NCBI GenBank assembly: GCA_016845825.1
Contig: JAERSJ010000155.1
Coordinates: 1-43,175 of the forward strand
DNA: 43,175 bases
Source of the DNA: Methanobacteriota archaeon
GTDB taxonomy: Archaea > Thermoplasmatota > Poseidoniia > MGIII > CG-Epi1
Direction of reading: 5' to 3'
Shown here: positions 9,473 to 35,665 of the stretch, one piece after another
Layout: every line of letters starts with the position of its first letter
How positions within the stretch are numbered: the first letter of the stretch is position 1
Position numbers and translations under genes: made by a program
The notes under the pieces: generated by a model
What the model was told of the DNA's origin: nothing
What the model saw: only the letters and a program-made list of their open reading frames with translations
Databases searched by the model: none

Positions 9473-10837
9473 TTAGCCCTCCAATGCAGCGAGGAATTGT
9501 CTAGCTGCGTTAGGAACATCAATTTCAGTAGCGGGTTCGCAAGATTTTGCAAAGAATGATAATCCATATTCATCAGATCGTGCGAAGCCTCTTAGTTTCA
9601 AAGGTTTTAGTAAAAGGGCATCTTCCATTTCTTCGACTAAGGCTTCAGGGCCAAAGTTTTCTTTTACAAATTCTAAACATGAATCTAAATCTCTTCCAAT
9701 TAATCTCTCAGTAATTTCACGATTCAAATATGCAGTACATGAACCACTTCCATCATCAAATATCATTTTCACTCTTAGATCGGGTTCTGCGTTTTTACGG
9801 TCGTCACCATTTCTGATTAATCTTTTAGTTTCTTTATCTCTAAAGATAAGTCCGCTTCCTTCTCTTATATTGAAGACATGCCCCTCGATAACTGCATCGG
9901 AAGCCCCGTTACGTTCATCTAGTTGAGCTAAAGTATAGTTCATTCCAGCTTCGTAATCAGAAAGGGATGGCAGATCTTCTTCTTCTAGTTCAGTGAATTT
10001 TGAATATTCGCCAAATTGCAAATCCGGTCCGTTGAATTCCTTAACATATGCATTTTCTACAGAGTAAGCTTTTCCAGCTACAATATTATGATCTTCCCAA
10101 GAAGTAAAGCGACATGTTCCACTTTTATCACCTATATTTCCACCAAAAATGACTTTTTCTTCACCTTTTATGTTTATAGTACGAGGTTCAACATCAATTA
10201 CTCTTAATTTAACTGATACATTTCTCATACCTGGCTTTAGATTTACAACTTCTAACTCTTGTGCAGCTTGGGCGTTATTAGTTTTGACAACTCCTAAATC
10301 AAGTTCTTTTAAGTCATTGTCTTCAATATTCTTCATAATTGCGCGGTCGCCTATGTTTACAGTAATAATATCGTTCCAGCTTTTAGTATAAGCATTTGAA
10401 ATTTCTACAACATCATTTGGTTGAAATTTAAATTCATCATTCCAAAAAGTATACCTTAGTCTGCTACTAGCATCACCAATTTCGCCTTCATAAATTGTCT
10501 TTTTGGATCCTTCCTTAGTGTTTATTTCTTTTTTGTATACAGAAATAATCTTAGCCTTGAAGCTTACACTAGTTTCTCCAGGTCCAACTTGAGCGAGTAA
10601 TTTTTCTCCAGCTACACTCAGTTCATTTGGATTTCCATAATGTTTTCTTACTATAGATTCTTTAGCGGTAGACAGATCAATTCCATATTCATCTACATAT
10701 CTTCTTAGTTCGTTTGCAATTACATTGCGTTCTAGCTTATCTCCGATAGCTTTTACGATATCGTCGATGTGTTTCTCAAAATCAGGTTCGTTTTCTTGCA
10801 TTAGAGCATCTCCTTGTTTTTTAGATTCGGACTCCAC
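9473..10837 (-). CDS. rpa: Replication protein A, multi-OB large subunit
   Basis: Repeated OB folds (IGD.S....T.W, V.NAY.K); C-terminal GSGLIFR...DLRVK...DDGSG OB domain; GTG start. Confidence 0.9.
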   Translation of the reverse strand: MESESKKQGDALMQENEPDFEKHIDDIVKAIGDKLERNVIANELRRYVDEYGIDLSTAKESIVRKHYGNPNELSVAGEKLLAQVGPGETSVSFKAKIISVYKKEINTKEGSKKTIYEGEIGDASSRLRYTFWNDEFKFQPNDVVEISNAYTKSWNDIITVNIGDRAIMKNIEDNDLKELDLGVVKTNNAQAAQELEVVNLKPGMRNVSVKLRVIDVEPRTINIKGEEKVIFGGNIGDKSGTCRFTSWEDHNIVAGKAYSVENAYVKEFNGPDLQFGEYSKFTELEEEDLPSLSDYEAGMNYTLAQLDERNGASDAVIEGHVFNIREGSGLIFRDKETKRLIRNGDDRKNAEPDLRVKMIFDDGSGSCTAYLNREITERLIGRDLDSCLEFVKENFGPEALVEEMEDALLLKPLKLRGFARSDEYGLSFFAKSCEPATEIDVPNAARQFLAALEG

Positions 10838-10863
10838 CCAAATCTATCCATTACTACCAGTCA

Positions 10864-10880
10864 GGGTATATATACTTTTG
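10864..10880 (-). promoter_or_regulatory. BRE/TATA promoter of the rpa-rpa-radA operon
   Basis: Minus strand reads CAAAAG-TATATATA-CC, about 30 nt upstream of the GTG at 10837. Confidence 0.6.
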
Positions 10881-10900
10881 GGTTTTACGCCTTAAAACCC
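10880..10900. repeat. Perfect 8-bp inverted repeat, candidate operator
   Basis: GGGTTTTA-cgcct-TAAAACCC; GGGTTTTAC recurs at 10924-10932. Confidence 0.55.
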
Positions 10901-10987
10901 TAAAAGGCTATAAGGTTGTAGTGGGGTTTTACCTAAGTCAGGGAAGTATTATAATCGGCCCTCTCGTCGTAAAGATAGGTAGATAAC

Positions 10988-11491
10988 TTGAAAGTAGATG
11001 AATTGACACCAAGAACTGGGCGTGTAAACATGCCAGTTAAGGTAATAAGTTTGGACGAACCGCGTTCTATGGACAATGGAACAATGGTTTGTGAAGGTTT
11101 AGTTGGAGATGAAACTGGCACAGTAATAATGAGTTTCTGGAACGATGAAATAGAAGTAGCTCAAGCCGATGTGGTTTTAGATTTAAAAGATGCAAGAGCT
11201 AATTTAGTGAGAGGGCACATGCGCTTGAGTCTAGGTAAGAAAGGTAGCATGAAAGAATCCAATATTGCTTTAGATACAATAAAGCAGTCTGTAAATTTAT
11301 CAGATTTAGAATATGAGATGCCACGTATGGGCGGAGGAAGAGGCAGAGGTGGCCCAAGAGGAAAACCATCTGGACGCTGGGGAGATCTAATGAAACTTAA
11401 GAGAGAAACTGGTAACAAAAAATTCTTCAATCGAGATGAAATGACAGAGGAACAAATAGTCGCAGCCATTAAGGAAATGGGAGGCGAGTAA
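10988..11491 (+). CDS. ssb: Single-OB-fold single-stranded DNA-binding protein with RGG linker and helical tail
   Basis: KV..L.P, LVGDETG...S.W and L..G..G OB motifs; TTG start; TTATAA box at ~10949. Confidence 0.85.
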   Translation: MKVDELTPRTGRVNMPVKVISLDEPRSMDNGTMVCEGLVGDETGTVIMSFWNDEIEVAQADVVLDLKDARANLVRGHMRLSLGKKGSMKESNIALDTIKQSVNLSDLEYEMPRMGGGRGRGGPRGKPSGRWGDLMKLKRETGNKKFFNRDEMTEEQIVAAIKEMGGE

Positions 11492-13060: not shown

Positions 13061-14941
13061 ATGTCTATGAATTCAGATGATGAAAATTTTGAGGATTCGC
13101 CGGAAGAAGAATTATCAGATGAAGAATCATTAGAAGAAGAAAAATTGGAAGAACAGTCCGAAGAGGAAGAAATAGATCCAAATGCCCCTCTTCGTCAACC
13201 AATCGTTGCAGTTCTAGGGCATGTAGATCACGGAAAAACATCTCTTCTCGATTATGTAAGAGGAACAACGATAGTAAAGAGAGAAGCAGGGGCAATAACA
13301 CAACATATAGGCGCTACAGAAGTTCCATTTGATACAGTTTCAAAAATCTGCGGCCCTTTGTTGAAAGAAGGAACAACTAATTTACCAGGCTTACTTTTCA
13401 TAGATACTCCAGGCCATCATTCATTCTCGACTTTGAGGTCTAGAGGTGGAGCTTTAGCAGATATAGCTGTTTTAGTAGTAGACATTACTGAAGGATTCAA
13501 ACCTCAAACAATTGAATCAATAAATATTCTAAAACAGCATAAGACTCCTTTTATTTTAGCACTAAATAAGATAGACAAGTTGCCAGGGTGGAGGACAAGC
13601 AAAGGCTCTTTCCTAGCCAATAAAGCAAGCCAAAGCCAAACAGCACAACAAACATTCCAAAATAGGATGTATGAAATAATAGGAGAACTCGGAACACACG
13701 GTTTCGACTCAGCACTGTTTACAGACATTCAAGACTTTCAAAAGACAATAGCATTAATTCCAACATCAGTAAAAGATACGGGCGAAGGAGTTCCTGAATT
13801 ATTTATGATTTTAATGGGGCTAGCTCAAAAATATCTCAGAGACAGATTATTACTTGATGAAGGTTCATCAGAAGGAACGGTCCTTGAAATTAAAGAAGAA
13901 AAGGGATTAGGAAAGACATTAGGTATAATTATCTATAACGGAATATTGAAAGCTAGCGACACTCTGATAATTGGAGCACAACCTGAACCTATAGTTACTA
14001 GAGTTCGTTCATTATTAAGACCAAAAGCTTTAGATGAAATTCGAGACCCACGGCAACAATTTGACGCAGTAAAAGTAGTAGGCGCAGCAGCAGGGTTGAA
14101 AGTTGTAGCTCCAGATATAGAAGGAGTTGTTGCAGGCGCACCATTTTACAGCGCATCCTCAGAAGATGAAATTGACGATGCATTAGATAGACTTACGGAC
14201 TCAATGAAATCAAATGTAAAGTGTACAGATGAAGGCGTAGTTATTCGTGCAGACGCAATAGGTTCACTTGAGGCATTAGCTTATGAATTATCAGCAGTTA
14301 ATATTCCGATTGTAAAGGCCGTAGTAGGCGACGTCTCTAGAAGAGATGTTGTTACAGCAGACCCTTCGGATGAAGAATATAGAGCGATTCTTGCTTTCAA
14401 TGTAAAAGTGCATCCAGATGCTAAGAAAGAACTTCATGAAACTGGAGTTAAAATATTTGAATCAGACATAGTTTATAGATTATTAGAAGATTACCAAGAA
14501 TGGAAAGAAAAAATAAAAGATAAGCAGGCCCAGCATTTGAGAGAGGATTTTTCACATCCTGGTAAATTTGAAATATTAGAAGGCCATACCTTCAGGACTC
14601 GTGACCCTGCTGTTGTGGGAGTTAGAGTACTTGGAGGTCGTATTGCGCTTAATCAAGCAGTTCTTAGAACAGATAATTCAGTAGTAGGACATATTCGCTC
14701 ATTAAGGTCAGGAGAACAAGTGTTGAAAGAGGCTTTACAGGGCGATGAGGTGGCCATAGCCATTAGTGAAGCTACAGTCGGACGCCAGATATCAGAAGGC
14801 GATGTTCTTTACATTGAAATGGACGAACGCGCTATATTGAAGATAAGAGAAGCAGGCGTAAAATTGGACCCTATTGAAGAAGATATAATAACCGAAATGC
14901 AGAAGATTAAGAAAAAAGATCAACCTTTCTGGGCAAGATAG
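13061..14941 (+). CDS. infB: Translation initiation factor aIF5B (IF-2)
   Basis: LRQPIV, GHVDHGKT, EAGAITQHIGA, DTPGH and NKID motifs; archaeal-type C-terminus ending FWA. Confidence 0.97.
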   Translation: MSMNSDDENFEDSPEEELSDEESLEEEKLEEQSEEEEIDPNAPLRQPIVAVLGHVDHGKTSLLDYVRGTTIVKREAGAITQHIGATEVPFDTVSKICGPLLKEGTTNLPGLLFIDTPGHHSFSTLRSRGGALADIAVLVVDITEGFKPQTIESINILKQHKTPFILALNKIDKLPGWRTSKGSFLANKASQSQTAQQTFQNRMYEIIGELGTHGFDSALFTDIQDFQKTIALIPTSVKDTGEGVPELFMILMGLAQKYLRDRLLLDEGSSEGTVLEIKEEKGLGKTLGIIIYNGILKASDTLIIGAQPEPIVTRVRSLLRPKALDEIRDPRQQFDAVKVVGAAAGLKVVAPDIEGVVAGAPFYSASSEDEIDDALDRLTDSMKSNVKCTDEGVVIRADAIGSLEALAYELSAVNIPIVKAVVGDVSRRDVVTADPSDEEYRAILAFNVKVHPDAKKELHETGVKIFESDIVYRLLEDYQEWKEKIKDKQAQHLREDFSHPGKFEILEGHTFRTRDPAVVGVRVLGGRIALNQAVLRTDNSVVGHIRSLRSGEQVLKEALQGDEVAIAISEATVGRQISEGDVLYIEMDERAILKIREAGVKLDPIEEDIITEMQKIKKKDQPFWAR

Positions 14942-14945
14942 TTAA

Positions 14946-15728
14946 TTATTTTGAAGAATTAAACCAAGGAATCAAAACCGATGTATTTGATTTATACTGT
15001 AAATATTCGGAATCATTTCCGTATTTTTTATCTGCAGATGCTTCCAAGAGAGGTATCCCGCTAACGAATAAGAGTAAGAAAGTAGTCCAAAGAGGTCCGA
15101 TAACTGTCCATAGAGGCACTTCGTACGAATAGCAGAATACAAAAATACCAAACCACAATAAAATATTCCCAAAATAATTTGGATGCCTACTGTATTTCCA
15201 TAATCCACTAGTACACCATTTTTCACCATTTAATTTATGGTTAAATTTACTGTAATCGGCCCATGCTTCGATAATTAAACCAATTGAAAACATACTAATT
15301 CCAATTGACGCTAGAGTATTCACACTATCTGGAGAATCTAAACTATTGAAATAGACAACAGGTAAGCACGTTAGAAATACCCATAAAATTTGCATTATCC
15401 AAAATCCTAAGAAACTCCAGAACTTTGATCTCATTTCATCAAAGCGATTGTCTTCGCCCCAAACTAGTATCCTGTAAGAAAGATAAGCCCCTAGCCTTAG
15501 AGACCATAATATCACCATCAAAGATCCAATTATTTTAGGGAATGAAAAGTCTTCACCGAACCATAGAGTTACAGTTGCTAAAAGTAAGAAATTCGCAGTA
15601 CCTGCAAAATCAGTTACTTTGTCTATTTGCAGCCCGTAGGCTATAGCAAAAAAGCTTAGTTGCATACACACTGTGATTAACAGTGAAACCAGAATAAAAT
15701 GTTCGTCGTTTTCTATAAAATTAACCAT
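14946..15728 (-). CDS. DUF1295-family (steroid 5-alpha-reductase-like) membrane protein
   Basis: WSLRLG, ED.RF, E..AD..K, GLW.YSRHPNYFG and SGIPLLE motifs. Confidence 0.9.
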   Translation of the reverse strand: MVNFIENDEHFILVSLLITVCMQLSFFAIAYGLQIDKVTDFAGTANFLLLATVTLWFGEDFSFPKIIGSLMVILWSLRLGAYLSYRILVWGEDNRFDEMRSKFWSFLGFWIMQILWVFLTCLPVVYFNSLDSPDSVNTLASIGISMFSIGLIIEAWADYSKFNHKLNGEKWCTSGLWKYSRHPNYFGNILLWFGIFVFCYSYEVPLWTVIGPLWTTFLLLFVSGIPLLEASADKKYGNDSEYLQYKSNTSVLIPWFNSSK

Positions 15729-15975
15729 CTCGAGGTTTGGCCTCGTTCACCTTTAACTCACGGCCTTCGGCTTCATGTCCGTTTAAGGCCTCAATTGCAG
15801 CTGCAGCATCATCTGAACTTGCCATTTCGACAAATCCAAAGCCGCGGCTTCTACCACTCATGCGATCTACAATAACTTTCGCATCGGATACTTCCCCGTG
15901 CTCTTCAAAAAGCTCTCTTAGTGTGTCGTCTTTGAAAGACCATGGCAAGTTTCCTACATAGATGTTATTACTCAT
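15721..15975 (-). CDS. Single-RRM RNA-binding protein
   Basis: RNP2 IYVGNL, RNP1 RGFGFVEM, and GRELKVNEAKPR. Confidence 0.95.
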   Translation of the reverse strand: MSNNIYVGNLPWSFKDDTLRELFEEHGEVSDAKVIVDRMSGRSRGFGFVEMASSDDAAAAIEALNGHEAEGRELKVNEAKPRDG

Positions 15976-16041: not shown

Positions 16042-19000
16042 CTAAAATTCGTTTCCTAACTCTCTTCTAGTCTGTCCAGGGTCAATAAATGGTAAAACAA
16101 ATGCAATCAGAAGTTGACAACTTCCTCCGATCATAATTGTAGTGGTATATGTGAAATTCTCTTCAAAATATCCTGCCATTTTTAATCCAAACAAAGCCCC
16201 GAAATTCAAAAGAGCCATGTACAAGGTAAACTGTGTAGCTCCAACCTTTGGCCATGTAACATTCATAAATAATGAAATTAGAGAGATCCCCATAGCAGCC
16301 CCAAAGAAAGGATATATGACAATCAACCAGGTCATAACAGCTTTATTTTGCCACAAATCTTCAGCTAGGGCAATTGTAAATATCGATAATCCAGTTAATA
16401 CAGCAAATAAACTTGCAATACGTCTAGCACCAAACTTATCTGCAATAAGTCCACCAATAATTGTTCCGGCGATTCCAGCAGTTACAGCCCACCCTCCGGT
16501 TACAGCAATATATTCAGCATCGCTCCACCCTAGCTGTTGAATGAAAAGTACATTCAGAACAGGGATCAAAAATTCCCAGAAATAGGTAAGCATAGCTAAT
16601 AGCATTCCAATAAGCGGAGCTCTAAGTGATAAAGCTTTGACAATGTCGCTTTTTTGCGGAGCTAAGTCAAATGCTTGTTGACCAACGGTATTATTTCTTA
16701 AGAAAAAGAAATATGCAGCACCACATCCAAGAGTTAGTAAGTGAACCCACATACTTCCTGCAAAATCACCAATAGTTAACAGCAAAAATAAGTCTAAAGC
16801 AATTATTATTCCAAAATCAACTCCAAGAGATTGAGGAGTATGGGTTCCCATATCCCAGCTTACTTGCTTTGCTACTTTCTTTTTAGTCTTAGTTGGCTTT
16901 GGTTCATCTTTTACTTTAATTACAGCTTTACCTTCACCCCAAGGGAATAACTTTTCTCCAGGCCTTTCTCTGATGAATGCAGGCAAACACATAATCAATA
17001 ACAGCATTGGCACAGTCAAGAATAATCCTCCAGCAATACCCAGAGATCCAATGAAGTATCCAATACCAGCTCCACCAACCATCGTACCGAAACGCTTAGC
17101 ACCAAACATGAAACCGTTTATTTTACCAAATTCTTCAGGACTTAAAACATCTACAGCTAAACCATCAACAGCTACATCCTGTAAAGAAGCAAAGCAATTA
17201 TGGAAGAATAGCAACCCCGTAAGAAGTGCAATTTTACTTTCTATTCCTGGGACTAGTGCAATAATTACAACGGTAATTACCATTCCAGCTTGAGCACCTA
17301 ATATCCAAGGCCTACGACGTCCCATAGGTAAGTAATGATAATTATCAACGAAAGGACCCCATAAGAACTTGAAAACCCAAGGTAGGTAAACCCAGAATAG
17401 CATATTACCTATTTCTGCAGCAGTAAATCCTTGTTGAGCTAAATAAGCAATTAAAGTATATGAAATAAATCCAGAAGGAATCCCCTGTGCAACGTAAAGC
17501 GAGCAAAGAGTAAGAGCTTTAGCACTCATTCCGCCGAAGAACATAGTTGTCATCAAATTAGGTTGACCGGCAGCGTCACCTTCGTCTTCCCAGACAAATT
17601 CATCATCGCCAGATTCTTCTACTTCCACATTACTTTCAGATCTTCTTTTTTGCGTAAAAATATATCCAGTAGCAGCCATAGAAAGAAGAATTACGGGTAA
17701 GAAGATTCCACCTGCAAGGTCAGTTAAACCTGCGAGTAAAGCACTTGATGGTTTATTTTCGTTAAGATAAACTACTGAAAAACTACTCACAGCAGACATT
17801 GACTCTCCATTGTCTAGAACTAGTCTTGCTGATAGAGTAATAGTTTGATTATTTTCAATTACTAAATCAGATGGAATAGGTAACTCCCAAGTTGCCCAAT
17901 TCCCTTGTGTGGAAGTATCTGTAGCAGAGTACCATTCACTTGCACCGAATTTAATCTCAATACCACCACCATTAGTTGGTTTATTTGCAGTAACAGCAGT
18001 TCCTTTCAGAATTTCGTTTTTGTATATTTTAGGTTTAACTGGAACCATTGTTCCGTTAATTTCTTCCATATCATATTCTAAACTCCAGTTTACCGAAACT
18101 TCAGGATCAATTTTCCCTGCAATTTCAACAAATACCAAAGGATCGGCTTGCCCATATCCGTATTCATTATCAGGCCGAGTTTCAAGAATTGAACAGTTAT
18201 TTGATGCAGCATCCGGGTCATCGTTCAGGATTTCTCTTTCAATAGAATATCCTGCCACTAAAGTGTCTTTAACTTCAGCCGGAGTTAAATCGGGATTTGC
18301 TTCTAAAGTTAGAGCAACTATTCCAGCCATTAATGGAGTTGCCATGCTAGTTCCACTCTTACTAGTATAGCCAGTGCCAGTACCTTGATTAGGTGCCATA
18401 ATGTTACTGCCTATTGCAGCCACATCAGGTTTAACTCGTCCATCTGAAGTATAGCCTCTAGAGCTGTAAATTGCTAAACTCAAGTCCTTGTCAAGAGATG
18501 CAACAGTTATAGGCAATCTCGAATCGCCAGGTGAATCTATTGTATTACATCCTGCACCCGTTGCAGAACCAAATTCATTTCCAGCACTTAAAGTGACTAC
18601 AAGCCCAGATTCAACAGCGGCATCGACAATTTGGCTCCATGCTGAGCTACCGTCATTATCGATATGAAATTCTACTTGTTGTTCACCTAGGCTAGATGTC
18701 ATCACTCTAATGTTAGGGGTTACTACCTTTTGATTTTCAATAGTCCATTCAACACCTCTTATGATGTCTTCAATGTCTCCGTCACAACATGCTAAAACAT
18801 TTACTAAATTCGCTTTCGGAGCAACACCTATGTGTGGCGTACCAGTATTATCACCAGCACCAGTTCCTGCAGCAATTCCAGCCACATGAGTACCATGAGT
18901 TCCACTATCAATTGATTCTCCAGGTAAACAAGGTGAACATATTACAGCGTCCTGAACAGCATCATAGTATGCAACGACTTTCATATCATCAAATGTAAAT

Positions 19001-19548
19001 TGATTGTCGTCCATATCATCTAGACCAACATGTGCATTATCCACGCCAGTGTCCACAATAGCAATAGAAATTCCTTCGCCATAAATCCCGTGATTTAGCC
19101 AAACATCATCAACGCCCATTGCAGGAACAGCATCAGCCATGTGAGGTTCTGCTTTTCCGATATCATCAAGCATTACAACACCATCCCATAATGCAACCTC
19201 AGAAATCATGTCTCGAGGCATAGTTGTTGCAATTAAATCAATAAATTGAGCACGAAATGTTACTTCGATTCCAGCATCTTCCAATCTTTGAACGTCATAA
19301 TCAGTTGGATGATGATCATATCTTACGAAGACACGGGCTTCTCCAGTATTGAAGAATCGTTCACCCTGTTCTAATTTCCAAATTAATAAATCTGAAATTC
19401 CATCATGATTTTTGTCTCTAGAGTAAACATCCCACCAATTATTCTCATAAATTGGTGAATTTTCTTCAGCAGATAAATTGACAAAGCCAGTACTAAGTAA
19501 TAAAAAAGTCACGATTCCAGCTGTGATAGCTTTGCGCTGCATATACAT
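16042..19548 (-). CDS. Fusion protein: secreted S8 subtilase, TM anchor, then AmpG-like MFS transporter
   Basis: Signal peptide; catalytic motifs IVDTG, HGTHVAG, SAGN, SGTSMATP; MFS motifs LYVAQGIP, PWVFKFLWGPFVD, GRRRPW, QDVAVDG, GATQFTLYMALLN. Start set to ATG 19548 (or 19542) to avoid overlap with tgtA. Confidence 0.9.
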   Translation of the reverse strand: MYMQRKAITAGIVTFLLLSTGFVNLSAEENSPIYENNWWDVYSRDKNHDGISDLLIWKLEQGERFFNTGEARVFVRYDHHPTDYDVQRLEDAGIEVTFRAQFIDLIATTMPRDMISEVALWDGVVMLDDIGKAEPHMADAVPAMGVDDVWLNHGIYGEGISIAIVDTGVDNAHVGLDDMDDNQFTFDDMKVVAYYDAVQDAVICSPCLPGESIDSGTHGTHVAGIAAGTGAGDNTGTPHIGVAPKANLVNVLACCDGDIEDIIRGVEWTIENQKVVTPNIRVMTSSLGEQQVEFHIDNDGSSAWSQIVDAAVESGLVVTLSAGNEFGSATGAGCNTIDSPGDSRLPITVASLDKDLSLAIYSSRGYTSDGRVKPDVAAIGSNIMAPNQGTGTGYTSKSGTSMATPLMAGIVALTLEANPDLTPAEVKDTLVAGYSIEREILNDDPDAASNNCSILETRPDNEYGYGQADPLVFVEIAGKIDPEVSVNWSLEYDMEEINGTMVPVKPKIYKNEILKGTAVTANKPTNGGGIEIKFGASEWYSATDTSTQGNWATWELPIPSDLVIENNQTITLSARLVLDNGESMSAVSSFSVVYLNENKPSSALLAGLTDLAGGIFLPVILLSMAATGYIFTQKRRSESNVEVEESGDDEFVWEDEGDAAGQPNLMTTMFFGGMSAKALTLCSLYVAQGIPSGFISYTLIAYLAQQGFTAAEIGNMLFWVYLPWVFKFLWGPFVDNYHYLPMGRRRPWILGAQAGMVITVVIIALVPGIESKIALLTGLLFFHNCFASLQDVAVDGLAVDVLSPEEFGKINGFMFGAKRFGTMVGGAGIGYFIGSLGIAGGLFLTVPMLLLIMCLPAFIRERPGEKLFPWGEGKAVIKVKDEPKPTKTKKKVAKQVSWDMGTHTPQSLGVDFGIIIALDLFLLLTIGDFAGSMWVHLLTLGCGAAYFFFLRNNTVGQQAFDLAPQKSDIVKALSLRAPLIGMLLAMLTYFWEFLIPVLNVLFIQQLGWSDAEYIAVTGGWAVTAGIAGTIIGGLIADKFGARRIASLFAVLTGLSIFTIALAEDLWQNKAVMTWLIVIYPFFGAAMGISLISLFMNVTWPKVGATQFTLYMALLNFGALFGLKMAGYFEENFTYTTTIMIGGSCQLLIAFVLPFIDPGQTRRELGNEF

Positions 19549-19573
19549 AGAGATAGGACTTTGATTAAAGAAC

Positions 19574-21304
19574 TTACGATTTGTCAAAATCTTCTATTCC
19601 GCTTCGCACCCTTACAGCCATTCCTTGTTGGTTAAGTTCTATTTCTTTAGGCCCAATCATCAATTTTCCAAAAGCAATTAATTCATCATTAGGAGTAACC
19701 ACAATGCATTCGTCAAGGCATTTTAATTTTGAATCAATATGCTCTATAAATTTACAAAATACACTTTTTCCTTTTCGATTAAATTCAGCAGTTTCTGAAG
19801 TTACAACTATACGATAAGCAGGTTTTTCTGAATGTTTATGCAACAATTCTGCACCTTTTTTTTGAAGTATAAACATTCCTCTTCTATGGGAAAGCGAAGC
19901 CACATGTTCACCGTCTAGAAGTAAATTCCTCAATCTTCTTGTTTTCCTACTTATTACTAATTCAGTTTCCCCATCCGTAAATATCTTACCGGTGCCTTTG
20001 CCAAATTGATAATCCATAATACTTCTAACGCGAGCAATATCCCATTCTTGCATTTTAAATCCTTCAATATCGTCTTGCAACAGTCCTGGATGAAATGGAT
20101 ATGTCTCGGATAAATGATTTGGTACTTTTCCAAAGTAAGGATGAAGCATTTCACCAGATTCAAACGAATTACTCAGATTAGAAAATATAGGCCTAATATT
20201 TGATTTTTCTCCACTTTTGATAGGAGTTTTATAACGATAAGCAGGTTCAAACTTACCAATCCAGTCAATATTATTTTCTATGACTTCAAAGACTTTCATT
20301 AAGGCTGGAGAAGATCGTAATCGGCTTTCTACCAATTCCCATAGCAATCCGTCGTGAATAGCCTGTTTAATTCTCCTGATTTCAGCAAAAGAAGTCATGA
20401 GATTATGTTTTGCAATAATCTTCTGTCTTTCTTTTTTATCGAGCTTCTTTAGTTCAGCAGCAGTCATACCAGGGAATGCTGAAAACTCACTAGGCAATTC
20501 TTCTAATTCATCTAAATTTCTAGTCCCCCATGTGAACATTAGACTGTCTCTTGAGGCAAATTTAGCATAGCTTGCACTATCAAAAACATCGCATCCCAAA
20601 AATGCAGCTAAAGCAAAAACCATGGGATGACCGCATCCAAAAAGATGCACAGGCCTTGAAATATCAAGCCCTTTTTTAGAGGCTAAAATAACTTCTGATA
20701 AAAGTTTGAAATTATTTTTCTCCATAAGAGGAACGACCCCTCCGATTGGAAAAATTTCAGCTTTTGTTTTTGAAGCCATTTCTGCGGCTTTTGTTCTTAA
20801 ATCTAAATGGCGTCCACCTTGAATAGGCGCAGCTAGGAAAATATCTTGTTTGTTTGCATCGGCAGCTTCAATTCTTTTTTGTGTTTCTTCCAACTCTTTT
20901 TTAGCATCTTCAAACCTAGTTTCAGGTTCACAAAATACATCTAAGACAGTTCCAATATCAACTTTAATCTTTTTTTGGAAATCAAGTATTTCTTCCGGTT
21001 TCATCTCAATTTCGCCGTAAACATGAGATTGAAAAGTTCCACTATCAGTCATTATCGGACCCGGCCAGTTCACTAAGCCATGAACTCCTTTATCTTCAGC
21101 AACTTCCTTCAGTTTTGGATTTTTGTAAATGATATAACTGTTAGTAATAATACCTTGAGCACCGCATTCAGCCAACTCTTCCATAGAGAGCGTCATAATT
21201 TTTGGATTCACAACAGGAAGTAAAGTTGGTGTATCTAGAACTCCGTGTTTGGTTTTAATTTTTCCAAGTCGTGCAAGTCCATCGCGTTTATTGATTTCAA
21301 ACAA
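19574..21304 (-). CDS. tgtA: tRNA-guanine(15) transglycosylase (archaeosine synthesis) with C-terminal PUA domain
   Basis: TP.LLPV.NP, MTDSG.FQ, GGVVPLME, HLFG.GHP, FDSASY motifs; PUA domain GKSVF.KF. Confidence 0.95.
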   Translation of the reverse strand: MFEINKRDGLARLGKIKTKHGVLDTPTLLPVVNPKIMTLSMEELAECGAQGIITNSYIIYKNPKLKEVAEDKGVHGLVNWPGPIMTDSGTFQSHVYGEIEMKPEEILDFQKKIKVDIGTVLDVFCEPETRFEDAKKELEETQKRIEAADANKQDIFLAAPIQGGRHLDLRTKAAEMASKTKAEIFPIGGVVPLMEKNNFKLLSEVILASKKGLDISRPVHLFGCGHPMVFALAAFLGCDVFDSASYAKFASRDSLMFTWGTRNLDELEELPSEFSAFPGMTAAELKKLDKKERQKIIAKHNLMTSFAEIRRIKQAIHDGLLWELVESRLRSSPALMKVFEVIENNIDWIGKFEPAYRYKTPIKSGEKSNIRPIFSNLSNSFESGEMLHPYFGKVPNHLSETYPFHPGLLQDDIEGFKMQEWDIARVRSIMDYQFGKGTGKIFTDGETELVISRKTRRLRNLLLDGEHVASLSHRRGMFILQKKGAELLHKHSEKPAYRIVVTSETAEFNRKGKSVFCKFIEHIDSKLKCLDECIVVTPNDELIAFGKLMIGPKEIELNQQGMAVRVRSGIEDFDKS

Positions 21305-21353
21305 TAAATCTCCACGAAGAAACCTTTATTTCAATTCATCTCTAAATTATATC

Positions 21354-23600
21354 ATGGACGAATTGAATCTACGAGTCACAGGTATGACCTGTGCATCTTG
21401 TGTCGCGTCAGTTGAGTCCATCGTTAGTAATTTAGAAGGTATAGATTCTGTAAGGGTTAATCTTCCTCTTGAAAAAGCCACAATCAGATGGTCTGAAGGT
21501 GCAAATGAAGATTTAGGAGCTGTTAGAGATGCAATTAGTAAAGGAGGATTTGGCTCAGAAGAATATGTAGATCCTAAGAAATATAGGCAGGAATCTTTAG
21601 AAAATGCAAACAAAATGGGTTTGCAGGTTATAATATCTTTAATTTTAACAGTCCCAACATTTTTTCTGACAATGTTTGTCGGAGATTTAGGACAGGTGTA
21701 TGACCTAGATTCACGATTATTTCTCGCTTTCATTTTATCCTCAATAGTTTATTTTTATGCAGGAATGGAATTCCACAAGGGAGCCTGGCAAGCAATTCTA
21801 TCTGGAAGAGCAAACATGGATGTTCTAGTCCATATCGGAACTACGACTGCTATGATTTGGTCTTCGCTTGTAGTATTTTCACCATATCTCGATTTTCTAC
21901 CTTCGATTTTTTCATCAACTACCCATGTATTCTTTGATGGTGCAGCTTTCATAATTTCATTCATTTTACTAGGTAATTGGTTGGAAGCTAGAGCTAAGTT
22001 AAGAGCCACAGATGCAGTTTTTTCGCTAATGGATTTAAAAGCAAAAACTGGTTCGATTGTTAATTCAGATGACTCAGTTTCAGAAGTGCCAGTTGAAGAA
22101 ATATTAATAGGAACTGAAATATTGGTTAAGGTTGGTCAAACAGTACCCTTAGACGGAATAGTAGTGAAAGGGGCAGCTTCAATGGATATGTCAATGATGA
22201 CGGGAGAATCTAATCCTGTTTTTGTTAAAGAGAACGATTTAGTTATGGGAGGTACAATAGTTTTAGATTCAGCAATTCATATAAAATCAACAAAATATCA
22301 TGATGATACAGTATTAGCAAATGTCATTAATTTAGTAGATGAAGCTCAGATGGGTAAGGCTCCAATTCAAAAATTGGTAGATAGAATCTCTGCAGTATTT
22401 GTTCCTGCAGTAGTAATTTGTGCCATTCTTGCTTCGCTTACTTGGATGTTTTTCTCAGAAGGATATGGAGATTATAATTCTACAGAATTAGCCATTATGG
22501 TTTTGGTGTCAACCCTAGTGATAGCTTGTCCATGCGCATTAGGATTAGCTACTCCGACTGCACTCATGGTCGGTACTGGTGTTGGAGCTCAGTATGGCTT
22601 GTTAATCAAAGGTATAGATGCTTTGCAGAATAGCTATAATACAAACACATTAGTTTTAGATAAAACAGGAACTCTTACAGTAGGCACACCATCAATAACA
22701 AATATCAAGTCAATAAGTTCAGATGAAAATAACATTTTGGCAATAGCAGCTTCTCTTGAATCTGCATCCACACATCCAATTGCTAAGGCGATTTCGCAGG
22801 CCCATTTAGAAAATAGCGAAGAATTAATTTCTTTTGACAGGATTGAAAATATAGGTGGAATGGGATTAGTAGGCTATCTAGACAATCAAGAATATGCGAT
22901 AGGAAACCAGCCTCTAATGGAAGAGAAAGAGGTCTTTGTTTCTAATCACATTGAAGAATTAGTGGATGTATTGTCAACTAGTACCGTAGTCTTTGTTTCT
23001 AAAGGAAATAAATTGCTTGGTTGGATTGAGATGAAAGACAAATTAAGGGAAACTACAAACTTAGCAATTTCAAAAGCAAAAGATTTAGGTCTTAAAGTAA
23101 TTATGCTAACTGGAGATAGGGCTGAAACAGCTTTAACGATTTCAAAAGAAGTTGGAATATCAAGGTTTGAGGCTGAGGTCAAACCCGACGGAAAAGCTGA
23201 ATTTGTAAAAAAGTTGCAGACTGAAGGTGCGAGCGTTGCTATGATTGGTGACGGAATTAATGATGCAGCAGCTTTAGCAGTTGCAGATGTTGGAATTGCA
23301 ATGGGTGCAGGTAGTGATATTGCACTAGAGGCTGCAGATATTGTCCTTCTTCGAGATGATTTATTGGATGTAGTATCGACATTAGATTTGGGTAAGGCTA
23401 CAATGGGTAAGATTCGAGGTAATTTAGCTTGGGCATTTGTTTATAATTTAATTGGTATTCCTTTAGCAATGGGAGTCTTAATTTCCTCGACAGGTTGGTT
23501 ATTGCCTCCGGCATTTGCAGCAGGAGCTATGGCATTATCCAGTGTTAGTGTAGTCTTAAATTCTTTGACACTAAGATCTTGGAAGCCATTCAGGGCATGA
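21354..23600 (+). CDS. copA: P1B-1 Cu(I)-translocating ATPase
   Basis: GMTCASC, TGES, CPCALGLATP, DKTGT, HP, GDGIND, YN and MxxSS motifs; ATG 21354 preferred to the overlapping TTG at 21249. Confidence 0.93.
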   Translation: MDELNLRVTGMTCASCVASVESIVSNLEGIDSVRVNLPLEKATIRWSEGANEDLGAVRDAISKGGFGSEEYVDPKKYRQESLENANKMGLQVIISLILTVPTFFLTMFVGDLGQVYDLDSRLFLAFILSSIVYFYAGMEFHKGAWQAILSGRANMDVLVHIGTTTAMIWSSLVVFSPYLDFLPSIFSSTTHVFFDGAAFIISFILLGNWLEARAKLRATDAVFSLMDLKAKTGSIVNSDDSVSEVPVEEILIGTEILVKVGQTVPLDGIVVKGAASMDMSMMTGESNPVFVKENDLVMGGTIVLDSAIHIKSTKYHDDTVLANVINLVDEAQMGKAPIQKLVDRISAVFVPAVVICAILASLTWMFFSEGYGDYNSTELAIMVLVSTLVIACPCALGLATPTALMVGTGVGAQYGLLIKGIDALQNSYNTNTLVLDKTGTLTVGTPSITNIKSISSDENNILAIAASLESASTHPIAKAISQAHLENSEELISFDRIENIGGMGLVGYLDNQEYAIGNQPLMEEKEVFVSNHIEELVDVLSTSTVVFVSKGNKLLGWIEMKDKLRETTNLAISKAKDLGLKVIMLTGDRAETALTISKEVGISRFEAEVKPDGKAEFVKKLQTEGASVAMIGDGINDAAALAVADVGIAMGAGSDIALEAADIVLLRDDLLDVVSTLDLGKATMGKIRGNLAWAFVYNLIGIPLAMGVLISSTGWLLPPAFAAGAMALSSVSVVLNSLTLRSWKPFRA

Positions 23601-25906: not shown

Positions 25907-25936
25907 ACTTCAAAGTTTACGGCACAGATTTATAGG

Positions 25937-26803
25937 TTATGCAGATTTTAAGAAGGTTAAAATTTTACGATGGTATACTTCAGGTTTTTCTAAAAAAGCC
26001 CAATGTGTAACATCTTCAAATTCGAAAAAAAGTGAACCTTCAATCAATTTATGTATCTCCTTACCAGATTCTGGACTTACCCAATTATCGTTAGATCCAG
26101 ACATAATGAAAGTTGGAATATTTTTTTTACCGATACTTTCGAAGATACTATTCATAGATTTATCGCCGACATATCCTCCAGTAGACAACAGGTGATTTTT
26201 CACAGTATCAATTGTTTTTTCATTCCATATATCTAAATCATTGTAAACTTTAAGAGCCAAATCTTTGGTTTCGTTCTCTTCTAAAACTTCCAATTCCTGA
26301 ACCATTTGTTTCTCCACCTCATGTTTCAATTCAGAGCTTATTTCTCCGTTACTTTCAAATGTTTGAAGTAAGGAAATTAGAACTGGAGAAGTAGGTAGTT
26401 GAGGTACACCAGTAGAGGCTATTAGAATTAAAGATGCACAACTATCCAATTTATCTGCAACCATTGAAGCAATAGAGCCTCCAGCAGAATATCCTACCAA
26501 ATTAATATTTCTTTTAGCGCCAGTCGGAATAAATTTTTCAATCAATTCATTAGCTTGATTGACGTATAGATTTTCAGAAGCAACATTAGGTACGTAATCA
26601 GATTTACCTCTTCCATAAAAATCAAAAGACAAAACTTGAAATCCTTGTTCAATAAGATCTTGAGTTAGATTATTGTAAATGTCTTTAGAAGTGGTTAGAC
26701 CGTGCATTAGAACTACTAAATTATCAGAAGCCTCGCCGGTAATTGAGTATCTTACTTTTCCGTATTCCAAATTAGTAAACCTGTCTATGATTTCCACAGT
26801 CAA
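25937..26803 (-). CDS. Alpha/beta-fold hydrolase
   Basis: HG oxyanion motif, D..GRG.S, nucleophile GYSAGG, acid G.ND, late His. Confidence 0.88.
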   Translation of the reverse strand: MTVEIIDRFTNLEYGKVRYSITGEASDNLVVLMHGLTTSKDIYNNLTQDLIEQGFQVLSFDFYGRGKSDYVPNVASENLYVNQANELIEKFIPTGAKRNINLVGYSAGGSIASMVADKLDSCASLILIASTGVPQLPTSPVLISLLQTFESNGEISSELKHEVEKQMVQELEVLEENETKDLALKVYNDLDIWNEKTIDTVKNHLLSTGGYVGDKSMNSIFESIGKKNIPTFIMSGSNDNWVSPESGKEIHKLIEGSLFFEFEDVTHWAFLEKPEVYHRKILTFLKSA

Positions 26804-26841
26804 CTTTTGATGGTAGATTTATAAAAGTTATTAGCTAGAGA

Positions 26842-27690
26842 CTACAAGAAAGGTTTAACAAATTCTTCAGATAATTCCCATAATTTCACATTATGTTTAT
26901 CATTTTTAGCTTTACTTGAACCTTTTTTCACTTGAGAATTAGCGAAGAACTTTCCAGTAATATTTTTAACTTCATCTGAGCATGCCAGGTGAACACTAGT
27001 TTTTGCACCGTCCTTTACGTTGATTGCAGTTAGCATCATTGCTAGTCTTATTGCATTTCTCCAGAAGAAATTATTATTTTTTCCAAAATTTGTAGATACA
27101 AATCCGGGATGCAAGCAATTTGCAGTAATTCCAGTACCTTCAATTCTTTTCGCTAATTCATAAGTGAACATTACGTTAGCGAGTTTAGATTTTTTGTAAG
27201 TTTCAAAGCCAGCATACTTCTTTTCACCATTCATATTATCGAATTCAAAATCAATACCATAATGAGCACTTGACGAAACATTAACAATTCTTTTGTAATT
27301 GCTTTTTTCAACAAGGGGAAGTAGTTTTTTCGTCATTAGAAAATAGCCTAGGTGATTCAAAGCAAATGTTCGCTCAAATCCTTCTTCAGTAACTTCTCTA
27401 GATGTAAAATAAGCTCCAACATTGTTTAACAAAACATCAATTCTAGGATATTTTTTGGATACTTCATCAGCAACTCGAGAAACTTCTTTCATCAACATGA
27501 GATCCGCTATCAAGTAATCAATGTCTACATGGCTATCAGCTACTTTTCTTATTTGCTCTACAACTTTCTTCCCTTTTGTTTTGCTTCTTCCAATAAGAAT
27601 TAGATTACATCCTTTTTTTGCTAGTTCGATAGCAGCTTCTTTACCGATTCCATCGGTAGCTCCTGTGATTAGGCAAGTGCGACCGTTCAT
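26842..27690 (-). CDS. Short-chain dehydrogenase/reductase (retinol-DH/WWOX-like)
   Basis: TGATDGIG, NNVG, VSS, YKKSK and HPG.V.T motifs. Confidence 0.92.
   Translation of the reverse strand: MNGRTCLITGATDGIGKEAAIELAKKGCNLILIGRSKTKGKKVVEQIRKVADSHVDIDYLIADLMLMKEVSRVADEVSKKYPRIDVLLNNVGAYFTSREVTEEGFERTFALNHLGYFLMTKKLLPLVEKSNYKRIVNVSSSAHYGIDFEFDNMNGEKKYAGFETYKKSKLANVMFTYELAKRIEGTGITANCLHPGFVSTNFGKNNNFFWRNAIRLAMMLTAINVKDGAKTSVHLACSDEVKNITGKFFANSQVKKGSSKAKNDKHNVKLWELSEEFVKPFL

Positions 27691-30723: not shown

Positions 30724-35665
<4,942 letters not shown>

What the first reader, a model, noticed from the sequence alone, without database searches (positions are those of the whole stretch)
16042..19548. 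Extracellular subtilase fused to an AmpG-like MFS transporter: a one-chain 'cut-and-import' device
Seen: one uninterrupted ORF containing a signal peptide, a propeptide-like region, a complete S8 catalytic set (D ~19050, H ~18895, oxyanion N, S ~18348), a beta-rich domain, one TM helix with KRR on its C-side, an acidic linker, then a full AmpG-type MFS (~17520-16042). The topology is coherent: the single TM returns the chain to the cytoplasm, where MFS N-termini begin. No well-spaced internal RBS/start is apparent. Established: AmpG-family MFS proteins import muropeptides or siderophores, and MG-II/III are protein degraders. Inference: the protease is tethered to a permease that captures released peptides in dilute seawater, or it processes or gates the transporter. 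I know of no characterised S8-MFS fusion.
Basis: partly seen in the sequence, partly recalled or inferred. Interest (0 to 1): 0.85.

Follow-up and report, generated by a model that had tools for sequence, protein, structure and literature searches.

The report
Archaeal surface protease fused to permease
A marine planktonic archaeon makes one long protein in which an outward-facing protein-cutting enzyme is joined by a single membrane helix to a nutrient-import channel, a conserved but unstudied design that may let the cell digest and swallow protein at one spot.

Summary
Window 16042-19587(-) is one open frame with signal peptide, S8 subtilase (invariant D166/H218/N324/S401), a beta-rich domain, one TM helix (TM0), an acidic linker and an AmpG-like MFS. 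It is no assembly artefact: 117 of 120 listed homologues carry both domains, 15 of 25 same-genus genomes hold it uninterrupted, contigs of two other studies bridge the junction without indels, and both halves are under strong purifying selection.

New here: the permease is a scaffold with a swappable ectodomain slot. Across the class the same TM0-MFS carries S8, an M28 aminopeptidase, a halocyanin-like cupredoxin, three unrelated unknown domains or a stub (at least 8 switches in 33 rows). The same S8 orthologue also occurs on an unrelated MFS or on a plain TM anchor.

"Cut-and-import" is plausible but unproven (about 0.45). For: two peptidase families, two MFS families. Against: the halocyanin variant, pocket residues that follow lineage rather than ectodomain, and an Opp-type binding protein elsewhere in the genome. 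Nine literature searches found no description.

The parts
16042..19542 (-). Whole coding sequence of the S8-TM0-MFS fusion. The stop codon is 16042-16044. The likely start is ATG 19540-19542. The alternatives are ATG 19546-19548 and TTG 19585-19587, and the TTG would overlap the TGT gene.
   Evidence: ORF list, translation, homologue N-termini MQRK, coordinates.
19468..19542 (-). Signal peptide, residues 3-27: MQRK, a hydrophobic core, then NLSA|EE.
   Evidence: Read from the sequence. Hydropathy peak at 7-25. No signal-peptide program was run.
19111..19467 (-). Conserved N-terminal pro-like region, residues 28-146.
   Evidence: 32 invariant columns in 10 orthologues. dN/dS 0.09-0.16. No Pfam I9 match and no PDB match, so the propeptide role is inferred from position.
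18139..19110 (-). S8 subtilase catalytic domain, residues 147-470. Catalytic residues: D166 (19051-19053), H218 (18895-18897), N324 (18577-18579), S401 (18346-18348).
   Evidence: Pfam PF00082, E 6.4e-46. Best PDB sequence match 9ues_B/3afg_A, E about 3e-34. Invariant triad and oxyanion Asn. dN/dS 0.04-0.07.
17749..18138 (-). Beta-rich domain after the protease, residues 471-600. No family assigned.
   Evidence: 15 invariant columns in 10 orthologues. No Pfam match above threshold. No PDB sequence match. dN/dS 0.06-0.15.
17653..17739 (-). TM0, the single membrane helix (residues 604-632) that returns the chain to the cytoplasm.
   Evidence: Hydropathy. Followed by KRR. An equivalent helix is present in every ectodomain-bearing relative whose hydropathy I examined.
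17524..17652 (-). Cytoplasmic KRR plus acidic linker, residues 633-675.
   Evidence: Sequence. Most relaxed segment, dN/dS 0.18-0.27. Length varies between families.
16954..17523 (-). MFS N-lobe, residues 676-865. It carries the AmpG-like residues K727, D735, G743-R745-R746 (motif A), D791, D795 and R819.
   Evidence: Pfam and NCBIfam. PDB alignment to AmpG, E 5.6e-12. Residue table. dN/dS 0.01-0.06.
16654..16953 (-). Lys-rich central loop with extra hydrophobic segments, residues 866-965.
   Evidence: Sequence. Length varies between families. dN/dS 0.10-0.27.
16045..16653 (-). MFS C-lobe, residues 966-1168. The TQF motif is conserved. The equivalents of AmpG E326 and R365 are Pro1080 and Ala1118.
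   Evidence: dN/dS 0.02-0.03.

Best explanation
The gene encodes a single polypeptide of a Marine Group III-type planktonic archaeon. An active subtilisin-like protease, with a beta-rich domain behind it, sits on the outer face of the cell membrane. About a dozen residues and one membrane helix (TM0) tie it to an AmpG-like MFS secondary transporter.

Shown:
- The fusion is real and conserved.
- Both halves keep their catalytic or transport framework residues and are under strong purifying selection.
- The topology places the protease outside and the MFS N-terminus inside.
- The permease belongs to a class-wide clade that carries a signal peptide, an ectodomain or a short stub, and TM0 in front of the transporter in every member examined.

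Inferred: the protease cleaves dissolved or particle-bound protein right beside the mouth of the permease, and the permease takes up a product class, most likely short peptides. Products are then captured before they diffuse away in dilute seawater. The substrate is not AmpG's muropeptide: the C-lobe pocket differs, and these archaea are not known to make murein.
For: Real and widespread:
- 117 of the 120 listed homologues carry both PF00082 and PF07690.
- 15 of 25 same-genus genomes have the full frame with no stop.
- 9 same-genus and 23 f3 genomes in a 161-genome class sample have frames of 1168 aa or more; 31 of those 32 are uninterrupted.
- DNA contigs of two other studies span 17395-18093 and 17180-18339 with no indel.

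Functional halves:
- The triad and oxyanion Asn are invariant.
- The MFS framework residues K727, D735, G743, R745, R746, D791, D795, Q1106 and N1115 are invariant in all 43 aligned MFS domains.
- dN/dS is 0.04-0.07 for S8 and 0.01-0.06 for the MFS lobes.

Coupling:
- The orthologous S8 (72% identity over residues 3-597) is fused in another Marine Group III lineage to an unrelated MFS: PF12832-like, with no BLASTP similarity (best E 0.058).
- That genome keeps the AmpG-like MFS with only a 25-aa stub in the slot.
- The same MFS clade carries an M28 aminopeptidase in 10 of 161 class genomes.
- S08A and M28A are among the four dominant extracellular peptidase families of deep-sea MG-II/III, with abundant transcripts (PMC4660358, passages).
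- The fused state is kept across sequences only 41-44% identical.

Precedents for protease or hydrolase coupling to an importer:
- The A. baumannii AmpG1 periplasmic domain binds Slt (PMC13507758, abstract).
- The PepT1/2 extracellular domain binds trypsin (PMC4597091, abstract).
Against: - The same ectodomain slot holds a halocyanin-type cupredoxin and three mutually unrelated unknown domains. None of these is a known hydrolase.
- Pocket-equivalent residues follow lineage, not ectodomain. R819 is present in all f1 and f3 rows whether they carry S8, an unknown domain or a stub. The f4-type clade has S/T/L/M there whatever is attached.
- Orthologous proteases end at a plain TM anchor in g13 (6 of 6), f2 (2 of 2) and about 10 f3 genomes. 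The protease therefore does not need the MFS.
- In the split-state genomes I checked, the protease and the MFS were not adjacent, and the neighbours of the split S8 in G035 are not transporters.
- The genome has an Opp/Dpp-type binding protein beside other S8 genes. Another peptide route therefore exists.
- The MFS scores below NCBIfam's cut-off for AmpG (122.7 against 350) and for RhtX/FptX (102 against 356). It matches no peptide-transporter family, so the substrate is unknown.
- One same-genus genome (G019) and one f3 genome (G131) show in-frame stops.
- No structure or docking model could be made.
Confidence: 0.45

Rival explanations
1. Permissive anchor or display scaffold. The TM0-MFS permease has its own conserved transport job, unrelated to proteolysis. 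Its N-terminal slot (signal peptide, ectodomain, TM0) is a structurally tolerant place where any membrane-anchored surface protein can be grafted by recombination at the anchor helix. The fusion gives anchoring and co-expression, not substrate channelling.
For: - Seven different occupants of the slot, including a redox cupredoxin and a 25-aa stub.
- At least 8 switches in 33 rows, while the MFS tree itself splits into three strongly supported clades that match genome families wherever the family is known.
- Pocket residues do not change with the ectodomain.
- The alone forms of S8 and M28 end exactly at a TM anchor equivalent to TM0.
- S8 and M28 are simply the commonest surface proteins of these archaea (PMC4660358). 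Peptidases would therefore be drawn often by chance.
Against: - When the S8 left the AmpG-like MFS in genus g14, it landed on another, unrelated MFS and not on a plain anchor.
- The fused state persists through deep divergence and under strong constraint.
- The slot is filled, at least with a stub, in all 33 clade members examined. That suggests the ectodomain matters to the permease.
- More distant relatives mount a glycoside hydrolase or lectin-like domains behind an extra helix at the C-terminus.
Confidence: 0.35
2. The protease acts on its own chain or on the transporter. Either it is released by autoprocessing near the membrane, so the MFS is only an export and maturation platform, or it gates or matures the permease.
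For: - Subtilases commonly self-process a pro-region (established knowledge).
- The tether between the beta domain and TM0 is short and variable.
- The pro-like region is conserved.
Against: - No conserved cleavage motif is visible in the juxtamembrane stretch.
- The non-protease occupants of the slot cannot do this.
- Nothing here tests processing.
Confidence: 0.1
3. Artefact: two adjacent genes joined by a sequencing or assembly error, or a decaying pseudogene.
For: The window comes from a fragmented assembly of 202 contigs. Two relatives show in-frame stops (G019, G131).
Against: - Hundreds of independent contigs from several data sources hold the same open frame.
- Independent DNA contigs bridge the junction without indels.
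- dN/dS is far below 1 in both halves.
Confidence: 0.01

Closest known systems
AmpG muropeptide permease (PAT family MFS). PDB 8zgz, 9j9z and 9c3f; includes A. baumannii AmpG1, whose periplasmic domain binds the lytic transglycosylase Slt.
   Same: It is the best solved-structure relative of the MFS half (E 5.6e-12, N-lobe). The equivalents of K62, motif A, D125, D129 and R153 are conserved. AmpG1 shows that a hydrolase can be coupled physically to an AmpG-type importer (PMC13507758, abstract).
   Different: Here the coupling is covalent and the enzyme is a protease, in an archaeon. The equivalents of AmpG R365 and E326 are Ala and Pro. The NCBIfam score is far below the family cut-off. There is an extra N-terminal helix, TM0. 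The substrate cannot be assumed to be a muropeptide.
Mammalian PepT1/PepT2 (POT family MFS), whose extracellular domain binds trypsin.
   Same: Both place an MFS importer and a serine protease together at the membrane. The paper proposes that this clusters proteolysis at the site of peptide uptake (PMC4597091, abstract).
   Different: It is a non-covalent, low-affinity recruitment through an Ig-like domain inserted between TM9 and TM10, and it involves a different MFS family. No PTR2 match was found in this protein or in this genome.
Membrane-anchored archaeal and bacterial subtilases, such as the PDB 3afg/9ues 'subtilisin-like serine protease'. The lactococcal PrtP plus Opp proteolytic system is recalled from memory, not from a call.
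   Same: S8 catalytic domain followed by a beta-rich C-terminal domain and a membrane or wall anchor. The enzyme feeds peptide importers in the lactococcal textbook system (recalled).
   Different: In those systems the protease and the importer are separate proteins. Here the anchor helix runs on into a 12-TM-class permease.
MFSD1-GLMP lysosomal dipeptide uniporter.
   Same: An MFS peptide carrier that works with a single-pass partner bearing a lumenal (topologically outside) domain (PMC11252000; search listing and start of abstract only).
   Different: It has two separate chains, the partner is not an enzyme, and the system is eukaryotic.

Membership tests
Peptidase family S8 (subtilases) | Catalytic triad in the order Asp-His-Ser, plus the oxyanion Asn | tested here: met
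   D166, H218, N324 and S401 are present and invariant in 14 fusions.
Peptidase family S8 (subtilases) | Pfam PF00082 above the gathering score over the full model | tested here: met
   157.4 bits against 21.8, model positions 1-288 of 288.
Peptidase family S8 (subtilases) | I9-type inhibitory propeptide | tested here: inconclusive
   No PF05922 match at E up to 0.1. The profile of residues 35-148 has no PDB sequence match. A conserved region occupies the expected position.
Major facilitator superfamily | Pfam MFS_1 above the gathering score, and motif A (G-x3-D-x2-G-x-R-R type) between TM2 and TM3 | tested here: met
   81.9 bits against 33.4. D735...G743-R-R745-R746 is invariant in 43 of 43 aligned domains.
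Major facilitator superfamily | Twelve core transmembrane helices in two six-helix lobes | tested here: inconclusive
   A crude hydropathy scan finds 9 strong segments after TM0. No topology program or structure model was available.
AmpG family muropeptide transporter (TIGR00901 / PAT family) | Score at or above NCBIfam's curated cut-off | tested here: not met
   122.7 bits against a cut-off of 350. The equivalog models NF008867 and NF008238 score 67.5 and 60, against cut-offs of 656 and 756.
AmpG family muropeptide transporter (TIGR00901 / PAT family) | N-lobe substrate and proton residues K62, D125, D129 and R153 (numbering of PMC12214514) | tested here: met
   They map to K727, D791, D795 and R819, all invariant in f1 and f3. 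Y152 maps to K818.
AmpG family muropeptide transporter (TIGR00901 / PAT family) | C-lobe residues R365 (substrate) and E326 (proton acceptor) | tested here: not met
   R365 maps to A1118 (A or G in f1 and f3). E326 maps to P1080 (A, G, S or Y in f3, T or N in f4).
AmpG family muropeptide transporter (TIGR00901 / PAT family) | Transport of GlcNAc-anhydroMurNAc(-peptide) | not testable with these tools
That these archaea lack murein is recalled knowledge, not a call.
RhtX/FptX siderophore MFS (TIGR02718) | Score at or above the curated cut-off | tested here: not met
   102 bits against 356.15.
POT/PTR2 proton-coupled peptide transporters | Pfam PF00854 match | tested here: not met
   Not among the Pfam matches of the protein. 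No match in the whole genome, which is 89% complete.

The most novel reading that the evidence does not exclude
Marine Group II/III archaea, among the most abundant heterotrophs of the ocean, carry a family of 'armed permeases'. Each is an AmpG-like MFS whose extra N-terminal helix mounts an exchangeable extracellular module: an S8 endoprotease, an M28 aminopeptidase or a binding or redox domain. Capture or cleavage of dissolved organic matter and uptake of the product would then happen on one polypeptide. That would be a covalent, single-chain archaeal counterpart of the 'selfish' enzyme-plus-importer systems of bacteria.
Probability: 0.4. Interest if true: 0.8.

Novelty: new variant of a known kind. 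Interest (0 to 1): 0.62.

Why it matters
Marine Group II and III archaea are uncultured yet abundant, and they are thought to live on dissolved and particulate protein. How they keep the products of extracellular digestion from diffusing away is an open question.

A conserved single-chain protease-permease would be a concrete, testable answer. It is one gene that can be expressed, mutated at S401 and assayed for uptake.

The wider finding is new information about how MFS transporters can be elaborated. One vertically inherited permease scaffold swaps its ectodomain among two peptidase families, a cupredoxin and unknown modules. This also means that published counts of 'extracellular S8 and M28 peptidases' in these archaea include proteins that are also transporters.

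If the fusion is only an anchor, the result still corrects annotation: many public records call these proteins 'hypothetical' or name only one half.

Tried and rejected

Complex prediction (S8 ectodomain against the MFS) was unanswered twice and then declared unavailable. No docking result exists, for or against.

Profiles of the pro-region (A2), the beta domain (A3) and unknown ectodomain A (A4) found no PDB sequence relatives. A4 had a single hit at E 0.19, which is not meaningful. Pfam found nothing above threshold for the unknown ectodomains or the beta domain.

Neighbourhood test: in G035 the S8 is split from the MFS. I asked whether its upstream same-strand genes are a peptide ABC importer. 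They are an acyl-CoA dehydrogenase, a Na/Ca exchanger, a 2-oxoacid dehydrogenase E1, ThiF and a thioredoxin-reductase-like protein. That gives no support.

The type-B MFS of P0056 was not found in the window's genome, which is 89% complete.

RNA evidence: contigs from two metatranscriptome studies cover pieces of both halves and the TM0 region (X15 17707-17937, X16 17650-17808). None bridges the cytoplasmic linker into the MFS, and contigs in an RNA library do not prove transcription. A single transcript is not shown.

An internal translation start at M666, M669 or M675 was considered and set aside, because the Met cluster is not conserved.

Literature: nine searches found no paper that describes an S8-MFS or M28-MFS fusion. 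'AmpG' together with 'Marine Group II' gave 0 papers. The library lacks most subscription journals.

Rows left out: L032 (the f3 g19 M28 fusion) was dropped from the MFS tree because my anchor motif did not match it. L037 and the L013 S8 were dropped from alignments A2 and A3 for the same reason. The trees used the 'quick' method (SH-aLRT only), and the outgroup was chosen by architecture.


Full report
OBSERVATION. Window 16042..19587 (minus strand) is one open frame of 1181 codons from a TTG. Homologues start at MQRK, so the likely start is ATG 19540-19542, 31 nt after the stop of the upstream archaeosine tRNA-guanine transglycosylase gene. I used the 1168-aa translation from ATG 19548 (P0001) for numbering.

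Pfam finds Peptidase_S8 at 157-466 (157.4 bits) and MFS_1 at 682-1121 (81.9 bits), with weaker BT1 and acetyl-CoA-transporter matches on the same stretch. NCBIfam's best transporter models are the AmpG family (122.7 bits, cut-off 350) and RhtX/FptX (102 bits, cut-off 356). The permease is therefore AmpG-like, but not a member by the curated score.

The positive-inside KRR after the helix fits a topology with the protease outside and the MFS N-terminus inside.

IS THE FUSION REAL? Yes.
- Of the 120 best homologues listed from a 5.8-billion-protein collection, 117 carry both PF00082 and PF07690. They come from ENA, JGI, NCBI, Tara and Logan assemblies, and JGI names some 'subtilisin family serine protease/MFS family permease'.
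- In whole genomes, 15 of 25 same-genus genomes (the window's own included) hold the full-length frame without a stop. Eight hold it only as pieces, mostly at contig ends, and one of these (G019) has an in-frame TAG. In two it was not found.
- Contigs of two other studies cover 17395-18093 (no differences) and 17180-18339 (18 substitutions, no gaps). No insertion or deletion was seen anywhere in the gene.
- Pairwise dN/dS among same-genus orthologues is 0.04-0.07 in the S8 domain and 0.01-0.06 in the two MFS lobes. It is 0.18-0.27 in the linker. dS is about 1-2, near saturation, so these values are rough.
- The four catalytic residues are invariant in 14 fusions that are as little as about 44% identical.
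- The flanks are core chromosome: RNA polymerase subunits, aIF5B, TGT and a Cu-ATPase. The order TGT, fusion, RRM protein, DUF1295 is kept in 11 of 11 same-genus loci.

WHAT THE WIDER COMPARISON SHOWS. I sampled 161 genomes of the class, each at least 80% complete.
- Window's genus (g1): the orthologous protease sits in a frame of 1168 aa or more in 9 genomes.
- Family f3: 23 of 53 genomes have such a frame (one, G131, with two stops).
- Genus g13 (6 of 6), family f2 (2 of 2) and about 10 f3 genomes: frames of 505-854 aa that end at a TM anchor.
- Family f4: no orthologue at E 1e-90 in 84 genomes.

Searching every protein of a 1.8-billion-representative library with the TM0+MFS half gave 301 hits at E 1e-30 or better. 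The nearest were other long forms. Pfam and NCBIfam on these, and on genome loci, show the same TM0-MFS behind:
- an M28 aminopeptidase (P0124; its cluster has 134 members; frames of 877-976 aa in 10 of 161 class genomes);
- a halocyanin-type cupredoxin (P0123; its printed sequence holds a Cys-x2-His-x4-Met pattern, and I recall that pattern as the type-1 copper motif);
- three unknown ectodomain types that HMMER does not relate to each other;
- in genome G042, only a signal peptide and a 25-residue stub.

That same G042 carries the orthologous S8 on a different, unrelated MFS. This is the P0056 type: 72% identical over residues 3-597, with no similarity beyond, and PF12832-like. Its cluster includes 'Marine Group III euryarchaeote CG-Bathy1' on a 211-kb contig.

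More distant relatives, whose origin I did not establish, mount a glycoside hydrolase with an F5/8C domain, a DUF1080-type lectin-like domain or FG-GAP repeats behind an extra hydrophobic helix at the C-terminus.

TREES. In a maximum-likelihood tree of 43 MFS domains, the 33 ectodomain-bearing ones are separated from standalone and C-terminally fused ones by a branch with SH-aLRT 99. They fall into three clades, each with support 100, and these match genome families f1, f3 and f4 wherever a row's family is known. Ectodomain types are interleaved inside each clade. The fewest changes of ectodomain type is 8.

In the S8 tree, the 'alone' proteases of f3 genus g10 nest inside fused ones. In f1 and f2, the alone forms are sister to a clade that holds both fusion types.

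So the permease is inherited vertically, its N-terminal module is exchanged repeatedly, and the protease moves between three states: MFS-A, MFS-B and a plain anchor. Both trees used the quick method. One M28 row was dropped.

HOW AmpG-LIKE IS THE PERMEASE? Solved AmpG structures are the best PDB sequence matches (E 5.6e-12, N-lobe), followed by the acetyl-CoA transporter SLC33A1. I used the residues named in PMC12214514 (passages) and the printed alignment.
- Conserved: K62, motif A, D125, D129 and R153 correspond to K727, G743-R746, D791, D795 and R819.
- Not conserved: R365 and E326 correspond to Ala1118 and Pro1080.

The N-lobe chemistry is therefore shared and the C-lobe pocket is not, which implies a related mechanism and a different substrate.

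MECHANISM AND ITS RIVALS. The best reading is a tethered ecto-protease that feeds the permease it is mounted on.

For coupling:
- two peptidase families on one permease clade;
- one protease on two unrelated MFS types, including a partner switch that left a stub behind;
- long retention of the fused state;
- two published cases where a hydrolase or protease is held at an MFS importer non-covalently (AmpG1-Slt; PepT1/2-trypsin; abstracts read).

Against coupling:
- The cupredoxin and the unknown modules occupy the same slot.
- Pocket-equivalent residues follow lineage, not ectodomain. R819 is kept in f1 and f3 whether the protein carries S8, an unknown domain or a stub.
- The protease works from a plain anchor in relatives.
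- Split genes were not neighbours in the genomes I checked.
- The genome also has an Opp-type binding protein next to other S8 genes, and no POT match was found.

I put coupled digestion and uptake at about 0.45, a permissive anchor scaffold with independent functions at about 0.35, self-processing or gating at about 0.1, and artefact at about 0.01.

COMPARISON WITH WHAT IS KNOWN, AND NOVELTY. Both domains belong to well-known superfamilies, and the architecture is present, machine-named, in public databases. I found no paper that describes or tests it in nine searches.

Two MGII/III papers that count S8 and M28 as extracellular peptidases do not use the words MFS, fused or fusion in their main text.

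I rate it a new variant of a known kind: a covalent form of hydrolase-importer coupling, and a permease scaffold with a swappable ectodomain. It is interesting because the organisms are abundant and uncultured, and because the hypothesis can be tested with one gene.

LIMITS. No structure model, docking or topology program was available. Family labels f1-f4 and genera g1-g25 are the tool's anonymous codes. That f3 and f4 correspond to Marine Group II families is my recollection of GTDB, not a call. The only names seen are 'Marine Group III euryarchaeote', 'Candidatus Thermoplasmatota archaeon', 'Methanobacteriota archaeon' and 'Euryarchaeota archaeon TMED99'. Transcription as one mRNA and the intactness of the protein are not shown.

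Noticed in passing
L024-L026 (G141, G159, G108); P0124: An M28 aminopeptidase is fused through TM0 to the same AmpG-like MFS clade. Frames of 877-976 aa occur in 10 of 161 class genomes. Other genomes have M28 alone (415-489 aa frames), plus the MFS with an unknown ectodomain.
   Followed up: partly
P0123 (660 aa; cluster of 33 members, contigs up to 1.2 Mb): A halocyanin/plastocyanin-type cupredoxin with an apparent type-1 copper ligand pattern is fused through TM0 to the same MFS clade. An electron-transfer domain on a permease is unexplained.
   Followed up: partly
L028 1709-4903 (+) and L027 1947-3767 (-), both in genome G042: One genome holds the orthologous S8 on an unrelated MFS (1065 aa). 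It also holds the AmpG-like MFS with only a signal peptide, a 25-aa stub and TM0. This looks like the footprint of a partner switch.
   Followed up: partly
L013 16645-19338, L033, L034; P0133, P0129, P0125: A recurrent Cys-rich ectodomain of about 200 aa (unknown type A, with a conserved Y-M-Y-F-W-G stretch) is mounted on the MFS in both the f3 and f4 clades. It has no Pfam or PDB sequence relative.
   Followed up: partly
P0213 (1367 aa), P0147 (840 aa), P0164 (1080 aa): More distant AmpG-like MFS proteins carry an MGH1-like glycoside hydrolase with an F5/8C domain, a 3-keto-disaccharide-hydrolase-like domain, or FG-GAP repeats. Each sits behind an extra hydrophobic helix at the C-terminus, a mirror image of the TM0 design. 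I did not establish their origin.
   Followed up: partly
window 15721-15975 (-): An 84-aa RRM_1 RNA-binding protein lies directly downstream of the fusion, followed by a DUF1295 membrane protein (14946-15728). The order is kept in 11 of 11 same-genus loci. That RRM proteins are uncommon in archaea is recalled, not tested.
   Followed up: partly
window 30724-33009 (-): The RNA polymerase A''-like ORF is 761 aa. The Rpb1_5 match covers only residues 307-701, so about 300 N-terminal residues have no Pfam assignment.
   Followed up: no
window 9473-10837 (-) and 5564-7075 (+): A 454-aa ORF with no Pfam match, and a 503-aa ORF whose only match is a CARDB domain, which suggests a surface protein.
   Followed up: no
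G000 contig C158, about 9.4-27 kb (outside the window): Two S8 paralogues (9474-11288 and 21011-22333), the genome's only SBP_bac_5 (Opp/Dpp-type) match (13119-14351, 785-aa frame) and MFS_1 matches (25936-27051) lie on one contig. This may be a protein-use island.
   Followed up: no
G019:C52:72-2675 and G131:C50:5886-8306: Two relatives show in-frame stops inside the fusion gene: 1 TAG in G019, and 1 TAG plus 1 TAA in G131. These could be pseudogenes or assembly errors.
   Followed up: no
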